Assembly: GCA_028288505.1 (NCBI GenBank)
Contig: JAQBNN010000224.1
Coordinates: 7,778 to 71,777 of the forward strand
DNA from: Segetibacter sp.
GTDB lineage: Bacteria > Bacteroidota > Bacteroidia > Chitinophagales > Chitinophagaceae
Direction of reading: 5' to 3'
Length of the DNA: 64,000 nt
The position numbers and the translations under genes were made by a program. Positions within the stretch are counted from its first letter, which is position 1, and each line of letters begins with the position of its first letter. Under the pieces are notes generated by a model. The model did no database searches. It saw only the letters and a program-made list of their open reading frames with translations, and had not been told where the DNA came from. Shown one piece after another: positions 8,029 to 55,367 of the stretch.

Positions 8029-8086
8029 TTCTTTGGTAGCCAGCTAAGTGCTACTATTGATCTTTACTTGCGACGCTCCGTTCAGC
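8029..8086 (-). repeat. Element copy 5 (subtype C)
   Basis: Reverse complement reads GAACGGAGCGTCGCAAGTAAAGATCAATAGTAGCACTTAGCTGGCTACCAAAG. Confidence 0.8.
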
Positions 8087-10271: not shown

Positions 10272-10328
10272 GTACAAGTGAGTGACACAACGATGAAGCC
10301 ATGAAAAACTACAGTCGGCAACAAAAAT
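10272..10328 (+). repeat. Element copy 6 (subtype B)
   Basis: GTACAAGTGAGTGACACAACGATG...GTCGGCAACAAAAAT. Confidence 0.9.
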
Positions 10329-10340
10329 ATTACTCAATTC

Positions 10341-12182
10341 TTACTCTTTATTCCTCGTGTTGAGTAAACCTACCGGCACTTTTAATTCCCCGGTAGCAAA
10401 ATCGATTATGCCATTGCGCTCCTCTTCAATATTGGTGGCCTGCGTGTACACATCACCGGCAATAGGACGGCTGCGCAGCTCTTGTTTAAATAATTTTATT
10501 TGCTCTGCCCTGGCTTCATCATCCTTTGGTCCACCATATTCCACAAAGCCGAAACCGCCCCACTCACTCACCAATAACGGCACTTGCCTACGATAGAAAA
10601 AGGGATCACCGACAACCAATGGAAACGCAGCTACGCCAACCATTTCGCCATTTACTAATTGGTCGAGCATTTGCTTCCAGCGCTGTAAGTCAGGAGTATA
10701 AAGATGCACCGTTAAAAGATCTGACTTCAGGCGGCCTTCGAACGAAATGTGCTGCCATCCATCGTTATCTACCACCAGGAATTGCGGATGGGCAATTTGC
10801 ATATAGTGGTAAGTATCAATAATGTATTTGCGGGTTTCTTCGTTAGTCGCAATATCCTGCGCACCCCAATCTTCATTATATAAACTCCAGATAACAACGG
10901 ATGGATGGGTTTCTATCAATGCAAGCATGCGATGCAATTCATCGTTATGATTTGCACGACTTTTATGATTAGAGCGGTGTGGACTAGGTACTTCCACCCA
11001 TAGCAGCAATCCAATTTTATCGGCAAGGTTATAAATGCGTGGATCAACACCAGCAATGTGAATGCGAACAAGGTTACAGCCTAACGCCTTCATCGCAATC
11101 ATGTGTCGCTTGATCTCTTCATAAGTTGCATTTCCCGGCTGGTATAATATTCCGTCGAGATAAACCGGTTTATTGTTTAGGTAAACACAACATCCCCTTG
11201 ATTCAATTTTGCGAAGGCCGAAGTAGGTTTCAATGTCAGCAACATAACCGTTTGCATCTATTAATTGTGCAACGAGGCGGTAAAGGTTTGGCTCTTCAGG
11301 GGTCCATAACTCTGCACCAGGAATTTCCATTACAAGACGCTGCCGCTTCTGCCCTGCCTCAAGGGTCAAGGGAAAATCGGACGTGGCGAGAGGTGCATCC
11401 TCCTTCTGTTTTCTTTTATACACATTAAGCCGAATAGTGTATGCGCCCGGGTCGTGAATGCGGGTGGTAAGGTTAAAACGAACAAGGTTATCCTCAACAA
11501 TTGAAACAACACCAACACGAGAACGAAGCCTGTTTCGATCAACCTGTTCAAGCCAAATGCTTCTTACGGCACCAGTATATGTTTGGTACCAAATACCACC
11601 TCGTTTATAAACGTGAGATTCCTGCTTGCCCCTGGGGATGTCAGCATCCATTGTATCAGAAATTCTAACGGTGAGGCGGTTGACAGGTTTTAAAAGATCT
11701 TGCGGCAGTTCAAAAGAAAAAGACGTGTACTCACCTACATGCACCGCCTCTCCTTCCACTGTCTGAAGAGGTAAACCATTAATCCAAACCCGAGTTTCGT
11801 ATCCGCACGCACCAAACGTTAGCTGCACCATAGCGTGTGGCGTTCCGTTCCCGTTTACTAATTCCGGCATTGGAAAATCCCTTTCATACCAAGCTACTAC
11901 TTTATCTGTCCAGGCATTGCCCGGCTCCTGTCCTTTTGCAGCTATTAGGTGATCTTCGATTGAACCAGGCCAGTTAGCAGTGTATTGATATTCATGTCCC
12001 AACTGCCAGCTTTCCTGTAGGCCTTTATCATCCGGATCCAGAGAGAAACGCCATTCTCCATCGAGCAATACAGGTGCGTGTGGACGAACTACTGCACGGG
12101 GTAAAGGGTTGGTAAACGGTTCATCATCAAATGCTTCTTCCTTACTTTTCGACGTGCTGTAATTGGGGTGATCTAGTACCAT
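10341..12182 (-). CDS. Glycoside hydrolase family 2 (no signal peptide)
   Basis: LDGEWRF, HVGEYTSF, FGLRKIE, VVIWSLYNEDWG (acid/base Asn-Glu), VSEWGG (nucleophile). Confidence 0.85.
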   Translation of the reverse strand: MVLDHPNYSTSKSKEEAFDDEPFTNPLPRAVVRPHAPVLLDGEWRFSLDPDDKGLQESWQLGHEYQYTANWPGSIEDHLIAAKGQEPGNAWTDKVVAWYERDFPMPELVNGNGTPHAMVQLTFGACGYETRVWINGLPLQTVEGEAVHVGEYTSFSFELPQDLLKPVNRLTVRISDTMDADIPRGKQESHVYKRGGIWYQTYTGAVRSIWLEQVDRNRLRSRVGVVSIVEDNLVRFNLTTRIHDPGAYTIRLNVYKRKQKEDAPLATSDFPLTLEAGQKRQRLVMEIPGAELWTPEEPNLYRLVAQLIDANGYVADIETYFGLRKIESRGCCVYLNNKPVYLDGILYQPGNATYEEIKRHMIAMKALGCNLVRIHIAGVDPRIYNLADKIGLLLWVEVPSPHRSNHKSRANHNDELHRMLALIETHPSVVIWSLYNEDWGAQDIATNEETRKYIIDTYHYMQIAHPQFLVVDNDGWQHISFEGRLKSDLLTVHLYTPDLQRWKQMLDQLVNGEMVGVAAFPLVVGDPFFYRRQVPLLVSEWGGFGFVEYGGPKDDEARAEQIKLFKQELRSRPIAGDVYTQATNIEEERNGIIDFATGELKVPVGLLNTRNKE

Positions 12183-12228
12183 ACTTTAATCGTTATACTT
12201 TTTGAAACGTTGATTCTTAAGGAAAGTT

Positions 12229-12284
12229 ATTTTTGTACCCGCATTTGTATTTTTATTAAGCATCGTTGTGTCACTCACTTATAC
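12229..12284 (-). repeat. Element copy 7 (B)
   Basis: Reverse complement reads GTATAAGTGAGTGACACAACGATGCTTAATAAAAATACAAATGCGGGTACAAAAAT. Confidence 0.9.
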
Positions 12285-12570
12285 AGTTGTTCGCTACGCA
12301 CCGCACCTGCTTACACATTAGCAAAACTAATTTGAAACTACTTTGTAACAAGGTGCAGTTCAAACCTGTAAAGATTAAGACCATAAGTGCTTTGACAAAG
12401 GGGGTGATTGCAATATTGATTCCAACTTTACAGAACACTTTTATAACGAATTAGTTAATTCTGCATTTGCAGTGATGAAGAAACTCTGGGTGACTAATAG
12501 TATTGGAAGGCCTGTTATGCAATTATACCTTGCACCCCATGTGCCAGGTGACTGAATAGAATCACCATCT

Positions 12571-12627
12571 GTACAAGAGTGCGACGCAACGATGCTGCTC
12601 CCTAGATTACAGTTTGGCCCAGAAATA
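12571..12627 (+). repeat. Element copy 8 (A)
   Basis: GTACAAGAGTGCGACGCAACGATG...TTTGGCCCAGAAAT. Confidence 0.9.
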
Positions 12628-12633
12628 CCTTCC

Positions 12634-13686
12634 TTATTGACTTGCCTTTTCAACTGCTTCAGTTTCCTCCTTTGCACTTGCTTTAGGGGTAGGTTGATTA
12701 ACTTTTAATTGCGGGGTAAACTGAAAATGGATAAACATTGGGAAATGGTCAGAACCGTTGTAAGGCATTTTTTTCATTGATATGAGCCCAAAATGGTTTG
12801 AGCAAAAAACATAGTCGAGCGGAAAGCGCATAAGCCAGTTTTTAGCGGAAAATGTACTGTAAAAGCCCCTGCCAATACGCGGATCGAGCAGTTCACTGGT
12901 TTTACGAAATAGAATGGTTACATGGCTCCATGCCACATCATTAAGATCGCCCATAACAATTACAGGCAAATCGCATTGCTTTGCTTTTAAGGCCACCTTC
13001 ATCAACTCCTTGTCTTTTGCTGTGGAATGGCTGTCCTCTCCCGGTACAGGAGGCTTAGGGTGAAGGCCCCATATCTTAACTTTTTGCCCACTTGGCAATG
13101 CTATCACAGCTTCAACAGAGGGTACGTCGTTCTCTACCAAAAAATTTACACTTCCTTCAATAATTTTATAACGGCTGTAGAATAGAAGACCATATGTATT
13201 TTCAAGCGGCTTTTTTAAATAGTAAGGATACTTATTAACCAACTGGTCCATCTCCTTTTCCCATTTTTTATTGGTTTCCAAAAGTAATATTACACCTGGG
13301 TCTGTTTCTTCAATTTGTTTTAGCATTTTTGAAAATTCGTTGTTATCCTGTAAAACGTTGGCGCTAAATAATTTTACCTGGTTCGATTTGTCGGTGCTCT
13401 CAACACGCCTCATTTCTTTGGCTGATACCAACGTATAAGGCCAAACCTTAACAGTTAAATAAATAACAGCAAGGCCAAGCAAGCAGGCTGTAACAAGGTG
13501 GAAGTTGTTTGTATGGTTGATTACAGTAACTAATGCTACCATTACAATACAACAGGCTACTAACTTTTGGTAACGTGGATATTCAAGAATGCGAAATATC
13601 CAATAGTCGTTTCTAACAAAAGGCAGACAAACAGCAATTATAAGTATCCAACTAAGAATTAATAATGCGGTGGTTAAAATAGTCAT
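12634..13686 (-). CDS. Membrane-anchored endonuclease/exonuclease/phosphatase (EEP) family protein
   Basis: Three N-terminal TM segments; SANV, MGDLND, LDYVF, GSDHFP motifs. Confidence 0.85.
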   Translation of the reverse strand: MTILTTALLILSWILIIAVCLPFVRNDYWIFRILEYPRYQKLVACCIVMVALVTVINHTNNFHLVTACLLGLAVIYLTVKVWPYTLVSAKEMRRVESTDKSNQVKLFSANVLQDNNEFSKMLKQIEETDPGVILLLETNKKWEKEMDQLVNKYPYYLKKPLENTYGLLFYSRYKIIEGSVNFLVENDVPSVEAVIALPSGQKVKIWGLHPKPPVPGEDSHSTAKDKELMKVALKAKQCDLPVIVMGDLNDVAWSHVTILFRKTSELLDPRIGRGFYSTFSAKNWLMRFPLDYVFCSNHFGLISMKKMPYNGSDHFPMFIHFQFTPQLKVNQPTPKASAKEETEAVEKASQ

Positions 13687-14802: not shown

Positions 14803-15354
14803 ATGCTCTTCTTTATTGGCATTGTACCGCCTGAAAAAATCTATAGAGATATCCTTCACATTCAGCAGCAGTTTGGCGATAACAAAACAGAGCCACATAT
14901 AACAGTAAAGCCGCCTGTAGCGCTTACACAGCAGCACGAATGGCTACAGAGCGTTGAGATTGTAACAGCGGCCTTTCCACCTTTCGTTATAGAGCTTACA
15001 AAAACGGGCATGTTCGGCTCGAGGGTCTTGTTTATCGACCTGCAATCGCCTACAATAAATGAACTGTATAAGCAAATACAAACCGCCACAAAACCTTTTG
15101 AAAAGAACCACGCAAGCCTCCATAATACTTACAACCCTCATCTAACATTAGGAAGAAAATGGTGTGGTTTTACCAGCAGCGACTTTGTGCAAATGAAGCA
15201 GCTTGCACACGAACTCCTATCACACGGCCCACTTTCTTTCCCGGTGCTTTCATTACGCATTTATTATAAGCCCCAAAGCAATAATAAATATGTGCGGTTT
15301 AAAGATGTGAACTTTATGGGTAAAACTCGCAAAGATCACGAGCAGTGGATATAA
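14803..15354 (+). CDS. 2H phosphoesterase (2'-5' RNA ligase family)
   Basis: Two HxT motifs: PHITV and PHLTL. Confidence 0.85.
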   Translation: MLFFIGIVPPEKIYRDILHIQQQFGDNKTEPHITVKPPVALTQQHEWLQSVEIVTAAFPPFVIELTKTGMFGSRVLFIDLQSPTINELYKQIQTATKPFEKNHASLHNTYNPHLTLGRKWCGFTSSDFVQMKQLAHELLSHGPLSFPVLSLRIYYKPQSNNKYVRFKDVNFMGKTRKDHEQWI

Positions 15355-15407: not shown

Positions 15408-15463
15408 CTTTTTGTGTGGGGCATTTGTTTTCAATTTAGCATCGTTGTGTCACTCACTTGTAC
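15408..15463 (-). repeat. Element copy 9 (B)
   Basis: Reverse complement reads GTACAAGTGAGTGACACAACGATGCTAAATTGAAAACAAATGCCCCACACAAAAAG. Confidence 0.9.
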
Positions 15464-15563
15464 ATTTCGATCTATTGGCAGCAATAAAACTTGTAAGCAT
15501 TAAAAGCTTTAGCCATCATCGGAAAACCAAATCTGCGCATTGCTGTTGCTGGGAGTAACAAAA

Positions 15564-15620
15564 GTACAAGAGTGCGACGCAACGATGATTAATAGTAGCA
15601 CATAGGCCTGCTACATAAAT
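15564..15620 (+). repeat. Element copy 10 (A)
   Basis: GTACAAGAGTGCGACGCAACGATGATTAATAGTAGC...GCCTGCTACATAAAT. Confidence 0.9.
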
Positions 15621-27213: not shown

Positions 27214-27274
27214 CTTGAAGTGATTGCGACGCAACGATGATGCCATGAAAACCAGTGCTGGTATCAGAAAAAAT
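27214..27274 (+). repeat. Element copy 14 (A')
   Basis: GAAGTGATTGCGACGCAACGATGATGCCATGAAAACCAGTGCTGGTATCAGAAAAAAT. Confidence 0.9.
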
Positions 27275-27278
27275 ATTT

Positions 27279-27335
27279 CTTTTTTGACCCTAGCATTTAA
27301 TCTTTACTCATCATCGTTGTGTCACTCACTTGTAC
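27279..27335 (-). repeat. Element copy 15 (B)
   Basis: Reverse complement reads GTACAAGTGAGTGACACAACGATGATGAGTAAAGATTAAATGCTAGGGTCAAAAAAG. Confidence 0.9.
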
Positions 27336-33570: not shown

Positions 33571-33628
33571 TACGAACGGAGCGTCGCAAGAATGTATCAT
33601 GAGAGATACAAATGCTCGCTTCATAACC
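33571..33628 (+). repeat. Element copy 19 (C)
   Basis: GAACGGAGCGTCGCAAGAATGTATCATGAGAGATACAAATGCTCGCTTCATAACC. Confidence 0.8.
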
Positions 33629-42447: not shown

Positions 42448-43794
42448 TTACTCATCAGCATCTTTAACCAACAGGTTTAGGAAACCTGCTATAACCATTG
42501 AAACACCTCCTACTACCAACGCATAAATACTTTCGCTGTTAAATAAGATTCTTACAAAAAACCCGAGAATTGCCGCTGCTAATATTTGAGGAATTACAAC
42601 AAAAAAATTAAAGACACCCATATAGAAACCCATTTTATTAGCAGGTAATGCGCCGGCCAATATAGCATAGGGCATTGTGAGAGTGGAAGCCCATGCAAGA
42701 CCCACGCCAACCATTGGTAATAAAAGCATGTTCTTATCCTTGATGTACAGCATTGAAATAAGACCCACTCCACCTATAATTAGAGCTACCATATGAGTAC
42801 AGCGGCGCCCGATCTTTTTAGCGAGGAAGGGTAACATGAAAGCAGCTATCGCTGACACCCCGTTATACACCATAAACATTACACCCACCCAATCTCCTGC
42901 ATCCTGGTACGCTTTGGTAGTAGTATCGGTTGAACCGAAAGCATTTTGAGCTACGCCTGATGTTGTATAAATCCACATGGAAAAGAAAGCAAGCCATGTA
43001 AAAAATTGAACAATGGCCAGCTGCAACATTGTTTTAGGCATTGTTACTATTCCTTTTCCAATTGCAATAATCCCTTTTGTGAACCCTTTTGTTTGCTCCT
43101 TTTCTTCTTCGAAACTTTTCAGATCTTCTGGAGGGAGCTCTTTGGTGGAAACGATTGTCCACAACACCGCTAAAAAAAATACCACACCTCCTATATAAAA
43201 TGAGTACTTAACAGAATCAGGAATTACTCCATCTTCGGCAGTATTACTTATGCCCAAAACATTCGTGAAAAAATAAGGCAATAGGCTGGCAACTACTGCA
43301 CCTATACCTATAAAAAAGGTTTGCATTGCAAAGCCAGTAGTTCGTTGGTTTGAAGCTAATTTATCGCCAACAAAAGCCCTAAAAGGCTCCATTGAAATAT
43401 TGATAGAAGCATCGAGCACCCAAAGCATAATAGCAGCCATCCATAAAGCAGTGGAATTAGGCATTAGAAATAAAGCAATGGAAGATAGTACAGCGCCAAG
43501 GAAAAAGAAAGGTCTCCTTCTGCCCCAGGTTGAGTGCCAGGTGCGATCACTTAAATAACCAATAATGGGCTGAACCAATAAACCGGTGAGAGGAGCAGCA
43601 ATCCAAAGGATGGGAATTTCCTCAATCTCGGCGCCAAGGGTTTGAAAAATACGGCTAACATTCGCGTTTTGCAATGCAAACCCAAACTGAATTCCGAGAA
43701 AACCGAAACTCATGTTGAAGATCTGCAGCAGTGATAACTTTTTCTTATTCCCAGAAGATGAGGGGACGTTTGGATCAATAGTTACAAGGGCCAT
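42448..43794 (-). CDS. MFS transporter of the sucrose/maltose GPH (SLC45-like) type
   Basis: FLGIQFGFALQ, IGYLSDRTW..WGRRRPF, NISMEPFRA; ATG at 43794 preferred. Confidence 0.85.
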   Translation of the reverse strand: MALVTIDPNVPSSSGNKKKLSLLQIFNMSFGFLGIQFGFALQNANVSRIFQTLGAEIEEIPILWIAAPLTGLLVQPIIGYLSDRTWHSTWGRRRPFFFLGAVLSSIALFLMPNSTALWMAAIMLWVLDASINISMEPFRAFVGDKLASNQRTTGFAMQTFFIGIGAVVASLLPYFFTNVLGISNTAEDGVIPDSVKYSFYIGGVVFFLAVLWTIVSTKELPPEDLKSFEEEKEQTKGFTKGIIAIGKGIVTMPKTMLQLAIVQFFTWLAFFSMWIYTTSGVAQNAFGSTDTTTKAYQDAGDWVGVMFMVYNGVSAIAAFMLPFLAKKIGRRCTHMVALIIGGVGLISMLYIKDKNMLLLPMVGVGLAWASTLTMPYAILAGALPANKMGFYMGVFNFFVVIPQILAAAILGFFVRILFNSESIYALVVGGVSMVIAGFLNLLVKDADE

Positions 43795-43980
43795 AGTTAA
43801 GCAATCGTTTGTTAGTAATGTGTAAGTTTTACATGAACTAAAGTAATACAAAAAAACATCCTACGAGGGGATGTTGGAAAACAATCAGATATAATAATAG
43901 TTTTTATAGCATTAGCAAAAGTGTAACTAATATTTTGCTGTGTAAGTATAATTAGCCTGAAGCATAATAGTAGCACAACC

Positions 43981-44040
43981 GATGAAAGGATTGCGACGCA
44001 ACAATGATGCTATGTAATACAAATGCCGGTACCAAAAAAT
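43981..44040 (+). repeat. Element copy 23 (A'); abuts the glgC stop
   Basis: GAAAGGATTGCGACGCAACAATGATGCTATGTAATACAAATGCCGGTACCAAAAAAT. Confidence 0.9.
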
Positions 44041-44041
44041 T

Positions 44042-45328
44042 TTACTGTATTACAAAACCATCAGGTAAAATAGCATTCTTTTTTACTACAACTATGTCGT
44101 CTTTAATGGTATATAAAGCGTTGTCTGTTTCGGCCATTCCTGTGCCGCCAACAATTCTTACATCGTTGCCGATTCTGCAGTTTTTATCAACGATGGCGTG
44201 CTTAATATAGCAACGTTCGCCAATGCCAATCCTAGGGATTCCATTTCTAAGGTTACTTTCCATTTGCTCTAAAGTCTCAAACGTGTCGTTACCCATTAAA
44301 TAGCTGCTGACAACGGTGGTTCCAAAACCTATACGTGACCTTATACCAATTACACTATTTTCTATGCGGCTCGCATTAATGAACGAACCTTCTGCAATCA
44401 TGGTGCGTTCTAATGTTGTTCCACTTATTTTAGCAGGTGGAAGCATACGCGGCCTGGTAAAAATGGTGTGTATATTGTCGTACAAATTAAATGGTGGCAA
44501 CTCGTTTGTAAGCGCAAGATTAGCTTCGAAAAACGAAGAAATCTGCCCAATATCTTCCCAGTAACCTTCGTATTGATAACTGTAAACTTTATGTGTTCCA
44601 ATTGATTTTGGAATGATGTCTTTACCAAAATCTTTATCCTCGGGATAAACTTTTAATAACAGGTCAATTAATAGCTGCCTGTTGAAAATATAAATACCCA
44701 TAGAAGCAAGGTATTCCTTACCAATGTTCTTCATAGCTGGCCCTGTATCGCTAGTCCAATCTCCTAAAAGATCTTGCGAAGGTTTTTCTATAAACGATGT
44801 TACAAAATGGTTTTCATCCGTTTTTAAAATACCGAAGTCAGAAGCTTCCTTACCCGCTACAGGAATAGTAGCAAGTGTAATATCTGCGCCACTGCTTGCG
44901 TGTTCTGAAACCATTGCTTCGAAGTCCATTTGGTAAAGCTGGTCGCCACTAAGAATGAGAATATATTCGAATTCGAAGTTGAAAATATGTTTGAAGGATT
45001 GGCGTACAGCATCGGCAGTTCCCTGGAACCAGTTAGAGTTATCGGGCGTTTGTTCTGCTGCCAGTATATCTACAAATCCTTTGCTGAAGCCGCTAAAGTT
45101 GTATGTGTTTTTTATATGCCTGTTAAGTGAAGCAGAGTTGTATTGAGTAAGCACAAACATCCGGTTGATATTGCTGTTAATACAGTTACTAATAGGGATG
45201 TCTACTAAACGGTATTTACCCGCAATAGGCACAGCTGGTTTGCTGCGGCTAGCCGTTAAAGGGTGCAGCCTTGTACCAGCACCCCCACCCAAAATAACGG
45301 CCAATGCGGACTTCTGATAATTGAGCAT
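44042..45328 (-). CDS. glgC: Glucose-1-phosphate adenylyltransferase
   Basis: ILGGGAGTRLHPLT, KPAVPIAGKYRL, WFQGTADAV, LASMGIY, YWEDIG. Confidence 0.96.
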   Translation of the reverse strand: MLNYQKSALAVILGGGAGTRLHPLTASRSKPAVPIAGKYRLVDIPISNCINSNINRMFVLTQYNSASLNRHIKNTYNFSGFSKGFVDILAAEQTPDNSNWFQGTADAVRQSFKHIFNFEFEYILILSGDQLYQMDFEAMVSEHASSGADITLATIPVAGKEASDFGILKTDENHFVTSFIEKPSQDLLGDWTSDTGPAMKNIGKEYLASMGIYIFNRQLLIDLLLKVYPEDKDFGKDIIPKSIGTHKVYSYQYEGYWEDIGQISSFFEANLALTNELPPFNLYDNIHTIFTRPRMLPPAKISGTTLERTMIAEGSFINASRIENSVIGIRSRIGFGTTVVSSYLMGNDTFETLEQMESNLRNGIPRIGIGERCYIKHAIVDKNCRIGNDVRIVGGTGMAETDNALYTIKDDIVVVKKNAILPDGFVIQ

Positions 45329-52589: not shown

Positions 52590-52646
52590 GTACAAGAGTG
52601 CGACGCAACGGAAGCTAAATAAGCATTTACAGCCGGGGCCAAAAAT
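52590..52646 (+). repeat. Element copy 27 (A)
   Basis: GTACAAGAGTGCGACGCAACGGAAG...CAGCCGGGGCCAAAAAT. Confidence 0.9.
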
Positions 52647-52649
52647 ACA

Positions 52650-53450
52650 CTACTTTCTTTTACCGAAGACAATGGCGGCATAAGCATTAAAAAACAATTG
52701 CTTTTCCTTATTTAAAAGTAGTATGGGCATTTTTTGAGAGTAGAACTCGGCACCTAATCCAACTTCGATTGCACTTACCACTTCGTTGTAGCGACCGTAA
52801 TCGAAACGAAGGGCGGTTTTTGCAAACCCACCAGGAACAAATTTAATTTCGTTAAACCCTTTGCCAAACCCTGAAGCACCAATAATGTCGGTAGCGGACA
52901 AGAAAACAGCATTGTTGTTGTTGTATTTAATTTGCTCCTGTTCGTTTCGTGCATTATTTACAGTTATGTAGTATGGTTTTAATAACCCTGCACTAAAACC
53001 TCCGCCGTAAAGCGCTGAAACAGCAACGCCATTTTTATTACCTTTTACGCCCAGCAAACGCTGCTGCCCGTAGCCAAGTTTAGTAAAATAAAAATTATTG
53101 ATTTTGCCGTAAATAAATGGGTTGCCAACTGCAAAACCCAAAACTCCCCTCGATAATTTGTCTTCTTTAGGGTGCTTGCGCTCACCAATTTCTAGGCTGT
53201 AAAGTGATGTTTTTACTGGAGTCTTCAATATGCCGAGTTCGTAAAAAGCACTGTACCCATCGCTGTAAAGCCTTACGCCAAAGGCGTTTTGCTTATGAAA
53301 AATCATTGCTCCTTCTTCTTCCTGCTTTTGCAATAATTGTATTTTTTCCTTCCTATCTTCTTTCTTTTGGTTCCGGGTTTCTTTGCGTTGCTGCGAAAAA
53401 GCTGAGGTAGCAACCAATGCGCAAAACGTTACAAAAACGACTTTCTTCAC
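52650..53450 (-). CDS. Exported hypothetical protein, possibly an outer-membrane beta-barrel
   Basis: Signal peptide from GTG at 53450 (MKKVVF...AFSQ); alternating beta-strand pattern and an aromatic-rich C-terminus. Confidence 0.7.
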   Translation of the reverse strand: MKKVVFVTFCALVATSAFSQQRKETRNQKKEDRKEKIQLLQKQEEEGAMIFHKQNAFGVRLYSDGYSAFYELGILKTPVKTSLYSLEIGERKHPKEDKLSRGVLGFAVGNPFIYGKINNFYFTKLGYGQQRLLGVKGNKNGVAVSALYGGGFSAGLLKPYYITVNNARNEQEQIKYNNNNAVFLSATDIIGASGFGKGFNEIKFVPGGFAKTALRFDYGRYNEVVSAIEVGLGAEFYSQKMPILLLNKEKQLFFNAYAAIVFGKRK

Positions 53451-53494
53451 GTTGATTTGATTTGATACTTGTAAATTTAGGCAAAAACAATTCA

Positions 53495-53899
53495 ATGACA
53501 GCACAGATAATATATAAAGGAAACTTAAGAACATCGGCCACACACTTGCAAAGCGGAACGGAGATAGAAACGGATGCGCCGGTTGACAACCAAGGCCAAG
53601 GTGAACGCTTTTCGCCCACTGATTTGGTAGCTACTGCTCTCGGAAATTGTATGCTCACCATTATGGGTATTAAAGCAAGGGATTTGAATGTTGACCTAAG
53701 CGGAACGACTGTAGAGGTTACTAAAGTAATGGTAGCCGAGCCCAGACGGATAGGCGAAATAAAAGTGACTTTCACATTCCCAGAAGGTTTTGAGGCCGAT
53801 GATAAACAAAAAACCATTTTGGAAAGAGCTGCAATGACGTGTCCTGTTATTGAAAGCCTGCACCCAAACATTAAGAAAGATGTAACTTTTAACTGGTAG
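53495..53899 (+). CDS. OsmC/Ohr family protein
   Basis: TDAP.DN.G.G..FSPTDL.ATALGNC and TCPV conserved cysteines. Confidence 0.88.
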   Translation: MTAQIIYKGNLRTSATHLQSGTEIETDAPVDNQGQGERFSPTDLVATALGNCMLTIMGIKARDLNVDLSGTTVEVTKVMVAEPRRIGEIKVTFTFPEGFEADDKQKTILERAAMTCPVIESLHPNIKKDVTFNW

Positions 53900-53958
53900 T
53901 TTTTTGGGTTTCCAGCGGTGGTTTTTCATAGCATCATCGTTGTGTCACTCACTTGTAC
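53900..53958 (-). repeat. Element copy 28 (B); abuts the OsmC stop
   Basis: Reverse complement reads GTACAAGTGAGTGACACAACGATGATGCTATGAAAAACCACCGCTGGAAACCCAAAAAA. Confidence 0.9.
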
Positions 53959-54050: not shown

Positions 54051-55367
54051 TTAAAGTTTAAATCCCTCCGATTTATTTGCAACAGCACTTAAGGGCGGAG
54101 GAGATTTAAGCAATGAAATGCCAACGGAACAATCAAGACATTTAATATGATCGCAATAGTTATTCTTAAGCTCAATAAGTCCCTGGCTCTCAAGTGCATT
54201 AGTGGATAGTACTTTGTACTTACTCCAGTTTATAGTTATGCTGTTCTTTTCGGCTGGCAATTTTTCTAACCACGTTAAAGCCTTTTCTTTTAGGGCCTCA
54301 TCTTTGTTCTGCAAACCATAAGCAAACAAAACAGGTACAATCGTATTGCTGATAATATTATCAATCATCGTTTGCCCTAATGGTTTTGGTTTGAAAACGG
54401 TTGCTTTGTCGAGCATGTAGTGGTAATGCCAGTAGTCGTTAGGTGTTACATCCAGCAGCTCCCTTACCTTCTCAATTTCTTCTATCTCTTTTATTTTAGA
54501 AAACAGGTGGGACGATGTATGAATAAGCATGGCTAATTGAGCGAGCCGTATTGTTGGGAAGTTAGCAGGACGCATCCGTAAGAAAAAGGGCTTAACGGTT
54601 GACTGTACCAGCTTGTATTTCTTTTGCAGGAACCGGTATTCGCGCTGCAGCAATAAAGGATAATCTTCTTCAAACTTTGCCTCGAGGAATCCTGCCTGGC
54701 CAAAAAGTAAAGCTTCTATTTGCTGTATTTGATTCTTATGTCGTGCTAATATATTTATTGATATGCTTTTTGCGATTGTTTCAAAAACATCTGCATTTAC
54801 TTTAATGCCGAAATTCTTTGCAAGTGCCCACCAAAAAACTTCTTCCCAATGGTTGTTGGCCAGCTTTACATTTTCTAAAACAGTTGCTGCTTTCCGTTGT
54901 AAACGTTCAACTGCTACTCTCTCTTTCCATGCTACCCAGTTCACTTCGTTAAGAACTGGGAGGTGAGGTTGACACGGAACAAAGCCTTTATATAATTTAA
55001 GCGCATCAAACTTTGCAATAACGTGAAATGGAACTTTGTCTTCGAGAACTAAAGTGGGTAATGATTGACTATTTGAATCAAGGATTTCTTCGTTGTGCTG
55101 CCACACAACATGAAGAATGATATTATGATAGTTCTTATCAATAGAGTGATTATGCAATCGCCAGTCAGAGGAAATGACATGCAATTCAATATTGCCGGCC
55201 CAGGTTGTATTATTTATAAGAATGCGTGCATTAAGAAAGTCGGGGCCCTGGTTGTGGTTTAATGTTCCCGGGTGAATCACTTGTAACGGCTCTCCACTTG
55301 ACAGTGCTAATCCCGAATGGTTAAACTGTTGAAAGCGCCACAAATATTGCAGGAACTTTTCCGTCAT
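54051..55367 (-). CDS. DUF2851 family protein
   Basis: GPDF.NA, GNIELH..SSDW..H.H..D.NY, MRPANFPTIRLAQ, C-terminal CxxxxCxxC. Confidence 0.85.
   Translation of the reverse strand: MTEKFLQYLWRFQQFNHSGLALSSGEPLQVIHPGTLNHNQGPDFLNARILINNTTWAGNIELHVISSDWRLHNHSIDKNYHNIILHVVWQHNEEILDSNSQSLPTLVLEDKVPFHVIAKFDALKLYKGFVPCQPHLPVLNEVNWVAWKERVAVERLQRKAATVLENVKLANNHWEEVFWWALAKNFGIKVNADVFETIAKSISINILARHKNQIQQIEALLFGQAGFLEAKFEEDYPLLLQREYRFLQKKYKLVQSTVKPFFLRMRPANFPTIRLAQLAMLIHTSSHLFSKIKEIEEIEKVRELLDVTPNDYWHYHYMLDKATVFKPKPLGQTMIDNIISNTIVPVLFAYGLQNKDEALKEKALTWLEKLPAEKNSITINWSKYKVLSTNALESQGLIELKNNYCDHIKCLDCSVGISLLKSPPPLSAVANKSEGFKL

What the first reader, a model, noticed from the sequence alone, without database searches (positions are those of the whole stretch)
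10272..12595. Compensatory base change in the element's core palindrome
Seen: aligned on the central base, subtype A reads G-C-G-[A]-C-G-C and subtype B reads G-T-G-[A]-C-A-C (for example copy 8 at 12571 versus copy 6 at 10272). The -2/+2 pair switches from C:G to T:A and keeps dyad symmetry. Subtype C keeps GCG-[T]-CGC, and A' extends the dyad to TTGCG-A-CGCAA. Inference: symmetry itself is under selection, either as a dimeric-protein operator or as a single-strand mini-hairpin with a GAC loop, like the ssDNA hairpins read by HUH/Y1 transposases.
Basis: partly seen in the sequence, partly recalled or inferred. Interest (0 to 1): 0.62.

Follow-up and report, generated by a model that had tools for sequence, protein, structure and literature searches.

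The report
Two haplotypes of an abundant intergenic repeat
The paired C:G-to-T:A switch is real, but it is one inherited difference between the two main versions of a ~90-nt repeat present about 1,500 times in this Chitinophagaceae genome, so it does not show that the small palindrome is selected for its symmetry.

Summary
At 10272 the core reads GTACAAGTGAGTGACACAACGATG (B). At 12571 it reads GTACAAGAGTGCGACGCAACGATG (A). Genome-wide there are about 1,450-1,650 copies. The -2/+2 pair is C:G in 653 copies, T:A in 732 and unpaired in about 45, and it has the highest mutual information in the element.

The inference is only partly supported:
- A and B are two old haplotypes that co-occur in 33 of 150 sampled genera, so this is one event.
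- The switch travels as a block with a -4 change that destroys a flanking pair.
- Both changes are CpG transitions.
- Uncompensated single variants at +/-2 are as frequent as variants at unpaired core positions.
- Only two dyad pairs (11-17, 12-16) are complementary in all 22 haplotypes.
- The mini-hairpin folds no better than shuffled sequence.
- No Y1/RAYT partner or replication-strand bias was found.

Two further results matter. Copies in the same intergenic region of related species keep 23-24 of 24 core bases while their tails are unalignable, so the core is constrained in place. Three minor haplotypes show perfect Watson-Crick covariation between positions 8 and 15, a different register, which I cannot explain.

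My reading is an undescribed REP/MITE-like repeat whose asymmetric 24-nt core is a recognition site, with A and B interchangeable.

The parts
10272..10295 (+). The dyad GTGACAC is at 10282-10288. The tail runs to about 10337 and abuts the stop of the convergent GH2-like gene (10341..12182, -).
12261..12284 (-). Core of a second type B copy (GTATAAGTGAGTGACACAACGATG) upstream of the GH2-like gene. It forms a head-to-head pair with the copy at 12571.
12571..12594 (+). The dyad GCGACGC is at 12581-12587. The tail ends at the stop of the convergent gene 12634..13686 (-).
27226..27232 (+). 7-mer GCGACGC of an A' copy (TGAAGTGATTGCGACGCAACGATG), with the extended dyad TTGCG-A-CGCAA. It pairs head-to-head with the B copy at 27312-27335 (-).
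43993..43999 (+). 7-mer of an A' copy with the rare AAGGATT head, in the intergenic region between genes 44042..45328 and 42448..43851. A copy sits in the same place and orientation in six species of the genus.
33581..33587 (+). 7-mer GCGTCGC of a type C copy (GAACGGAGCGTCGCAAG), with a central T.
8070..8076 (-). 7-mer of a second type C copy (GAACGGAGCGTCGCAAGTAAAG on the minus strand).
52590..52613 (+). Type A copy docked on the stop of gene 52650..53543. The same intergenic region and orientation holds type A in G015 and type B in G022, G016 and G041.
53935..53958 (-). Type B copy between genes 54051..55367 and 52650..53543. The same place in G015, G022 and G016 holds a copy with 23 of 24 core bases identical and an unalignable tail.
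15440..15587 (.). Typical head-to-head doublet: B (-) at 15440-15463 and A (+) at 15564-15587. The tails point at the two convergent genes.

Best explanation
The two copies belong to an apparently undescribed, very abundant dispersed repeat found in part of the Chitinophagaceae. A unit is about 90 nt: a weak head (ttGCTGAATAAAG..aAaA), a nearly invariant asymmetric 24-nt core, and a degenerate tail of about 42 nt ending in GCTGG..CAAAAA. It sits between genes. The tail usually points at the nearest gene, most often just after a convergent stop codon, and two units often lie head to head. Shown: A (GCGACGC) and B (GTGACAC) are two old haplotypes of the same core. They differ as a linked block at positions 10, 12 and 16. 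They occupy the same kinds of site, and they replace one another in the same intergenic region of related species. Shown: the core is constrained in place, because copies at the same site in other species keep it while their tails diverge beyond alignment. Inferred: the core is the recognition site of a sequence-specific trans-acting factor, most likely a DNA-binding protein, either the mobilising enzyme or a host factor that has adopted the repeat. That factor accepts both haplotypes. Inferred: the +/-2 switch arose as two CpG transitions fixed in one founder sequence and spread by copying or gene conversion. It was not produced by repeated selection for symmetry. The part of the dyad that is always complementary is only two base pairs per arm around a variable three-base centre.
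For: Abundance and architecture: 1,345-1,550 copies by three detection methods, and more than 93% lie outside ORF calls. Head-to-head pairs within 400 nt number 183, tail-to-tail pairs 24 and tandem pairs 6. The tail faces a 3' end in 747 copies and a 5' end in 491, with a sharp onset 40 nt from the core. Haplotype block: (T,C,G) 646 against (A,T,A) 722 at positions 10, 12 and 16. Age and spread: both haplotypes occur in every species tested in the genus and in 33 of 150 genera of the family, at 1 to more than 1,000 copies. Core constraint: with detection independent of the inner 11 nt, 568 copies have 0 mismatches, 28 have 1, 4 have 2 and 1 has 3. Copies at the same site in species with about 60-70% protein identity keep 23-24 of 24 core bases while their tails are unalignable. 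Equivalence of A and B: same context and distances, and A in G000 and G015 against B in G022, G016 and G041 in one intergenic region. Mutational origin: CpG transitions are the commonest single variants of the A 7-mer (GCGATGC 6, GCAACGC 6, GTGACGC 3). Sequence rather than structure: mean folding z-scores are about 0 for core, tail, head and whole unit.
Against: No trans-acting factor was identified. No empty or filled site was found, so mobility is inferred only from the patchy distribution and lineage-specific gains. Pairs 11-17 and 12-16 are complementary in all 22 haplotypes. Haplotypes C, F and E show perfect Watson-Crick covariation between positions 8 and 15: 51 of 51 in this genome and 149 of 150 listed matches in other species. 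That points to some base-pairing constraint which a plain double-stranded protein-site model does not predict. Concerted evolution by gene conversion could imitate purifying selection on the core.
Confidence: 0.5

Rival explanations
1. The dyad is a symmetric operator read by a dimeric double-stranded-DNA-binding protein, and symmetry is selected.
For: The 7-mer plus AA is the only segment shared by all subfamilies. 11-17 is G:C in 22 of 22 haplotypes, and 12-16 is C:G or T:A in 22 of 22. Type C flips the centre from A to T, which a symmetric reader would not notice.
Against: The half-sites would be only 2 bp. The +/-1 pair is broken in haplotypes F and E (GCGTAGC, GCGTGGC) and in GCGATGC. The +/-4 pair is lost in B, C, E and F. 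The asymmetric positions 9, 18, 19 and 20 are as invariant as the dyad. There is one event, and CpG transitions explain it. A symmetric reader that tolerates Y/R should also tolerate the hybrids, and these are no commoner than other single variants.
Confidence: 0.15
2. The core folds as a single-strand mini-hairpin (stem GC/GC or GT/AC, three-base loop) and is read by an HUH/Y1-type enzyme, as at REP or IS200/IS605 ends.
For: Stem positions covary or are invariant while the three loop bases vary among haplotypes. Head-to-head dimers predominate as in REP families (PMC3733652). Positions 8 and 15 covary in Watson-Crick fashion in C, F and E. A GTAC tetranucleotide lies 5' of the core, where REPs carry GTAG.
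Against: Hairpin energies are -0.8 (A) and -1.9 (A') kcal/mol, the dyad is not the minimum-energy fold in B, and z-scores run from +0.8 to -0.45. The 8-15 register is incompatible with the dyad stem, and its folds are also weak. This genome has only degenerate Y1 genes. RAYT genes in the family carry their own classical long-stem REPs, and the ones flanked by this element do not form a clade. Presence of Y1 or RAYT genes does not track the element. Orientation shows no bias against GC skew, 54% versus 51%.
Confidence: 0.1
3. The unit acts as RNA. Its reverse complement is transcribed as the first part of 3' UTRs, and the core is bound by an RNA-binding protein or affects termination or stability.
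For: The tail docks on convergent stop codons. In the conserved 44042/43851 intergenic region the unit lies between the stop and a conserved intrinsic terminator hairpin, so it is inside the 3' UTR. Orientation is biased about 70:30 next to 3' ends. The proposed 7-9/14-16 stem of C, F and E includes a G-T pair, which would be a legal G-U pair on one strand only.
Against: About 40% of copies point at a 5' end, and about 30% of those near 3' ends are in the other orientation. There is no excess structure and no Rfam match.
Confidence: 0.15
4. The core is an uptake-signal-like sequence, as DUS and USS are in Neisseriaceae and Pasteurellaceae. It is kept intact at each locus by biased DNA uptake and recombination, and A and B are dialects.
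For: Density is about 1 per 2.5 kb. It occurs in both orientations and often as inverted pairs after genes. It is shared across a family with variable copy number. The short core is conserved in place while the flanks drift. It is rare in viral contigs: 35 stretches among 2.9 million contigs.
Against: It is almost absent from coding sequence. 24 nt is long for an uptake signal. Two dialects coexist in one genome at similar numbers. Competence in these bacteria was not tested here.
Confidence: 0.05

Closest known systems
REP/REPIN elements with RAYT transposases (GTAG-tagged REPs)
   Same: Hundreds to thousands of short intergenic copies. Head-to-head dimers predominate and tandem pairs are negligible. 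Inheritance is lineage-restricted, persistent and largely vertical. A conserved tetranucleotide (here GTAC) lies 5' of a dyad.
   Different: There is no 5-13 bp stem-loop, only 2-4 bp arms and no folding signal. No cognate RAYT was found, and RAYTs in this family flank themselves with other, classical REP hairpins. The unit is about 90 nt with an asymmetric 24-nt core.
CGTC-tagged REPs (Di Nocera et al. 2013, PMC3733652)
   Same: Abundant palindromic repeats with head-to-head dimers for which no dedicated transposase has been found. The paper reports them in Bacteroidetes among other phyla. The reverse complement of the core contains CGTC.
   Different: CGTC REPs have 8-9 bp stems, 4-5 nt loops and a CCA tail. 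None of these is present here.
Orphan MITE-like repeats such as Correia elements of Neisseria (from my own knowledge)
   Same: Units of about 100-150 nt at gene boundaries, no known transposase, and influence on neighbouring transcripts proposed.
   Different: Correia elements have 26-bp terminal inverted repeats and a TA target duplication. Here most copies are single units without an inverted partner, and no target duplication could be assessed.
IS200/IS605 ends and their miniature derivatives
   Same: The 8-15 covariation is reminiscent of this.
   Different: No intact TnpA was found in this genome. There is no strand bias relative to replication and there are no subterminal hairpins.
DNA uptake sequences (DUS/USS)
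   Same: High density, conservation of a short core in place, family-level dialects, and inverted pairs after genes.
   Different: This element is restricted to intergenic DNA, has a much longer core, and its two dialects coexist in one genome.

Membership tests
REP/REPIN-RAYT | Imperfect palindrome forming a stable stem-loop (stem 5-13 bp) | tested here: not met
   Core hairpin energies are -0.8 to -1.9 kcal/mol with z-scores from +0.8 to -0.45. Mean z is about 0 for core, tail, head and whole unit over 250 copies.
REP/REPIN-RAYT | A RAYT gene flanked by the same repeats and co-inherited with them | tested here: not met
   The closest relatives of this genome's RAYT-like pseudogene are not flanked by the element. 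RAYTs in the family are flanked within 50-200 nt by their own long-stem REPs. The ones flanked by this element are scattered over the tree, needing 7 changes against 7.7 for shuffled labels. G090 has at least 32 copies and no NF047646 match.
REP/REPIN-RAYT | Head-to-head dimers predominate and tandem pairs are negligible | tested here: met
   183 head-to-head, 24 tail-to-tail and 6 tandem pairs within 400 nt. Compare Table 1 of PMC3733652.
IS200/IS605-type single-strand transposition | Orientation bias relative to the direction of replication | tested here: not met
   54% of copies are on the + strand where GC skew is positive and 51% where it is negative (1,229 copies).
IS200/IS605-type single-strand transposition | Presence of an intact Y1 transposase (PF01797) | tested here: not met
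   This genome has only a three-stop pseudogene and a truncated RAYT-like ORF. PF01797 occurs in 90 of 151 family genomes with no relation to the element.
MITE | Terminal inverted repeats on each unit and an autonomous IS with the same ends | tested here: not met
   About 75% of copies are single units. Self-BLAST of the assembly found no long repeat carrying the core. Assemblies do collapse IS copies, so this part is weak.
MITE | Target-site duplication, with filled and empty sites | not testable with these tools
   No strain-level relative was found. The best metagenome relatives are 81% identical at protein level, and only 3 units occur in 535 kb of them.
Dimeric-protein operator | Dyad symmetry maintained across variants at all contacted positions | tested here: inconclusive
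   11-17 and 12-16 pair in 22 of 22 haplotypes, 13-15 in 20 of 22 (19 G:C, 1 G:T), 10-18 in 12 of 22, and 9-19 in 4 of 22.
Known RNA families (Rfam 15) | Match at gathering score | tested here: not met
   0 matches in the 64-kb window.
DNA uptake sequence | Over-representation in coding as well as non-coding DNA, and a competence receptor | tested here: not met
   98 of 1,462 copies lie inside crude ORF calls. Competence genes were not tested.

The most novel reading that the evidence does not exclude
The core is a signal kept by selection at about 1,600 gene boundaries and read through a single-stranded step (RNA or ssDNA) by an unknown factor. Two independent sets of Watson-Crick covariation, 12:16 in A/B and 8:15 in C/F/E, would be its footprint. 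That would be either a new kind of 3'-UTR or boundary element in Bacteroidota, or a single-strand mobilisation system that does not use a Y1 transposase.
Probability: 0.15. Interest if true: 0.75.

Novelty: new variant of a known kind. Interest (0 to 1): 0.4.

Why it matters
Small dispersed repeats are among the least understood parts of bacterial genomes, and almost everything known comes from Proteobacteria. This Bacteroidota family has a density rivalling the richest REP genomes, yet it has no hairpin and no transposase. Its core also stays intact at the same site across species. That makes it a good system for asking whether such repeats persist as parasites, through gene conversion, or because the host uses them. 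For the specific claim, the lesson is methodological: covariation among copies of a repeat counts founders, not events.

Tried and rejected
- Tail hairpin: by eye the tails seemed to hold a variable hairpin. RNAalifold found none and folding z-scores are about 0, so I rejected it.
- RAYT partner: flanking in this genome and in G050, G061 and G047 looked promising. Those RAYTs carry their own REP hairpins closer in and do not form a clade, so I rejected it.
- IS200-like TnpA as partner: presence does not track the element.
- Replication-strand bias: a visual impression from G090 was not borne out in G000.
- Mini-ORFs after the ATG motifs: there is no consistent frame (read directly).
- Promoter readings (sigma-70-like TTGCTG-N16-TACAAG; Bacteroidetes -33/-7): poor matches and the wrong orientation for 60% of copies. 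I did not pursue them.
- Autonomous parent element: self-BLAST found none.
- Empty sites: the exact-protein look-up gave one 2.9-kb contig that ends at the repeat. The metagenome scan gave relatives at 81% protein identity or less, with 3 units in 535 kb. The GH2 gene is not syntenic in the genus.
- Literature: no paper holds the core sequences or describes such a repeat in these genera.
- Broken-dyad argument: I first took the dyads of haplotypes E and F as evidence against any pairing. The 8-15 covariation made me withdraw that argument.
Full report
**The observation.** The sequence is as described. The copy at 10272-10295 (+) reads GTACAAGTGAGTGACACAACGATG. The copy at 12571-12594 (+) reads GTACAAGAGTGCGACGCAACGATG. 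A further B copy lies at 12261-12284 (-). The window has 21 matches to the degenerate 24-mer with up to 3 mismatches, against none in 100 shuffles. Aligned base for base, A and B differ at core positions 8, 10, 12 and 16.

**What the element is.** The window's genome (4.07 Mb, 307 contigs, 39.7% G+C) holds 1,345 to 1,550 copies, depending on the detector. That rises to about 1,650 when minor subfamilies are added.
- A unit is about 90 nt. Information content is high over a 24-nt core and low over a roughly 22-nt head (ttGCTGAATAAAG...aAaA) and a roughly 42-nt tail ending in GCTGG/GCCGG..CAAAAA.
- More than 93% of copies lie outside crude ORF calls.
- Neighbouring copies alternate in orientation. 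There are 183 head-to-head pairs within 400 nt (peak 70-140 nt between cores), 24 tail-to-tail pairs and 6 tandem pairs.
- The tail faces the 3' end of a gene in 747 copies and a 5' end in 491. The distance from core to a convergent stop has a sharp onset at 40 nt, so the tail often touches the stop codon.
- Rfam has no match.

**Distribution.** Every species tested in the genus has the element, from 4 to more than 1,000 copies. So do 33 of 150 sampled genera of the family. Public records name the carriers Ferruginibacter, Segetibacter, Flavihumibacter, Ilyomonas, Polluticaenibacter and unclassified Chitinophagaceae. Other families of the order lack it. With the ten central bases left free, only A-type and B-type cores and rare single variants appear in these genomes. 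A and B are therefore two old founder sequences that travel together.

**The compensatory claim.**
- Genome-wide the pair is C:G in 653 copies, T:A in 732, T:G in 9, C:A in 3 and other combinations in about 35.
- A mutual-information scan over 1,262 intergenic copies puts 12-16 first (MIp 0.76, 98% Watson-Crick). Pairs 10-16 and 10-12 follow at 0.63 and 0.62 and are not complementary.
- The three positions form a block: (T,C,G) 646 against (A,T,A) 722. The change at position 10 turns the T:A pair with position 18 into A:A.
- Within each subfamily, deviations at positions 12 and 16 (8 and 3 in A; 4 and 2 in B) fall in the same range as at the other inner positions, paired or not (1 to 12).
- With the 7-mer left free, all rare variants are single changes and none is compensated.
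However, at about 0.6% deviation per site, only about 0.05 double variants would be expected in 1,400 copies. The within-subfamily data have no power either way.
- What remains is one event. That event consists of C12-to-T and G16-to-A, the outer members of the two CpGs of GCGACGC. CpG transitions are the commonest single variants of the A 7-mer (GCGATGC 6, GCAACGC 6, GTGACGC 3).
- Given two CpG transitions, 2 of the 6 possible combinations are symmetric and complementary. A mutational origin is enough to explain the event.

**Haplotype-level view.** I aligned 22 distinct haplotypes: those with at least 5 copies here, the minor types, and two seen in relatives.
- 11-17 is G:C in 22 of 22.
- 12-16 is C:G in 17 and T:A in 5, with none unpaired.
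- 13-15 pairs in 20 (19 G:C, 1 G:T).
- 10-18 pairs in 12.
- 9-19 pairs in 4.

The part of the dyad that is always complementary is two pairs around a variable three-base centre (GAC, GTC, GTA, GTG, GAT). A triloop hairpin would give that pattern. So would a protein that contacts positions 11, 12, 16 and 17.

**Structure and the HUH analogy.**
- As single-stranded DNA the dyad hairpin is worth -0.8 kcal/mol in A and -1.9 in A'. It is not the minimum-energy fold in B. None beats shuffled sequence.
- Over 250 copies the mean folding z-score is about 0 for core, tail, head and whole unit.
- This genome has only a Y1 pseudogene with three stops and a truncated RAYT-like ORF.
- RAYT genes (NCBIfam NF047646) are common in the family, but they are flanked at 50-200 nt by their own long-stem REP hairpins.
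- The RAYTs that happen to sit between two of these units are scattered over the RAYT tree.
- Presence of Y1 or RAYT genes does not follow the element.
- Orientation shows no relation to GC skew.
- The organisation into head-to-head dimers does resemble REP families, including the CGTC type for which no transposase is known (PMC3733652).

**Conservation in place.** Two gene clusters of the window are syntenic in other species of the genus, with proteins about 60-80% identical.
- Between genes 44042..45328 and 42448..43851, a unit lies just after the upstream stop and before a conserved terminator hairpin. It has the same orientation in G000, G015, G041, G022, G045 and G016, and is absent in G006 and G008. 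G000, G041 and G016 share a rare head variant (AAGGATT), which argues for common descent.
- Between 54051..55367 and 52650..53543, G000, G015, G022 and G016 each have a B copy. The cores are 23 of 24 bases identical and the tails cannot be aligned.
- Other intergenic regions show units present only in G000.
- With detection independent of the inner core, 568 copies have no mismatch in its 11 bases, 28 have one, 4 have two and 1 has three.

The core is therefore held constant locus by locus, by selection or by gene conversion, while units are also gained over time.

**A and B are interchangeable.** They have the same distribution over context classes and the same distances to genes. They combine freely in doublets. 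The intergenic region after gene 52650..53543 holds an A copy in G000 and G015 and a B copy in G022, G016 and G041, in the same orientation. The G015 copy differs from B at exactly positions 10, 12 and 16.

**An unexplained second covariation.** Three minor haplotypes read GAAC-G-GAGCGT-C-GCAA (C), GAAC-T-GAGCGT-A-GCAA (F) and GAAC-C-GAGCGT-G-GCAA (E). In this genome the two variable positions (core positions 8 and 15) are G/C 19, T/A 23 and C/G 9, with no other combination. Among 150 listed matches from five other species, 149 are complementary. Given three different bases at each site, the chance of a fully complementary assignment is about 1 in 24. The implied stem (7-16, 8-15, 9-14) clashes with the dyad stem, is absent from A and B, and is energetically marginal. 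I first took the broken 13-15 pair of F and E as evidence against any pairing, and I withdraw that. Some base-pairing constraint may act in this region, but the data do not give one consistent structure.

**Verdict.** The inference that symmetry itself is selected is neither shown nor excluded. A founder haplotype produced by two CpG transitions explains the +/-2 switch. The HUH comparison fails every test I could run. The underlying repeat family appears undescribed in the literature I could search. It is the more interesting object: a non-palindromic element with no known transposase and a core that is conserved in place.

**Limits.** I had no expression data, no strain-level comparison, crude gene calls, and a fragmented assembly.

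Noticed in passing
G000 genome-wide; genus genomes G041, G014, G017, G018, G008: Minor haplotypes GAAC-N-GAGCGT-N'-GCAA occur only as G/C, T/A and C/G. That is 51 of 51 copies here and 149 of 150 listed matches in other species. It is Watson-Crick covariation in a register that differs from the dyad.
   Followed up: partly
window 43853-43900 (minus-strand gene direction), and the same intergenic region in 8 genus genomes (L340-L347): A hairpin plus T-run followed by TTTGCTACTTTTA..AATTATGTAA (AACATCC....GGATGTTTTTTTGCTACTTTTA) is conserved upstream of gene 42448..43851 in all nine species. It is probably the terminator of the upstream gene fused to a Bacteroidetes-type promoter. It is present whether or not the repeat is.
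   Followed up: no
L189-L238 (RAYT loci of other Chitinophagaceae genera): Most NF047646 RAYT genes in this family are flanked within 50-200 nt by inverted copies of classical long-stem REP hairpins. Examples are GGTCTAAGCG-TCT-CGCTTAGACC and TTGTTGGTG-n5-CACCAACAA. Several distinct REP/RAYT systems therefore exist in the family.
   Followed up: partly
G000:C56:2778-3251 (-) and G000:C167:3829-4143 (-): The only Y1-type genes in the window's genome are a RAYT-like ORF with an upstream in-frame stop and an IS200-like pseudogene with three stops.
   Followed up: partly
L259 (Logan contig SRR13312975_2758761): The only other public contig that encodes the exact 183-aa protein of 14803..15354 ends about 100 nt after the gene, just before the repeat doublet begins. 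The repeat probably breaks short-read assemblies, which would explain the 307 contigs of this genome.
   Followed up: no
Viral contigs, L354-L388: Only 35 stretches among 2.9 million viral contigs carry the core, with 1-3 copies per contig. That is far below the host density of about one per 2.5 kb.
   Followed up: no
G000 contigs C116, C251, C235, C77, C5: A segment of about 520 nt is present in at least five copies at 80-92% identity. It is unrelated to the repeat studied here and I did not identify it.
   Followed up: no
G007:C41:15768-24101: Three RAYT-like genes (72-77% identical to the G000 fragment) lie in tandem about 4 kb apart. That is unusual for a gene family that is normally single-copy.
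   Followed up: no
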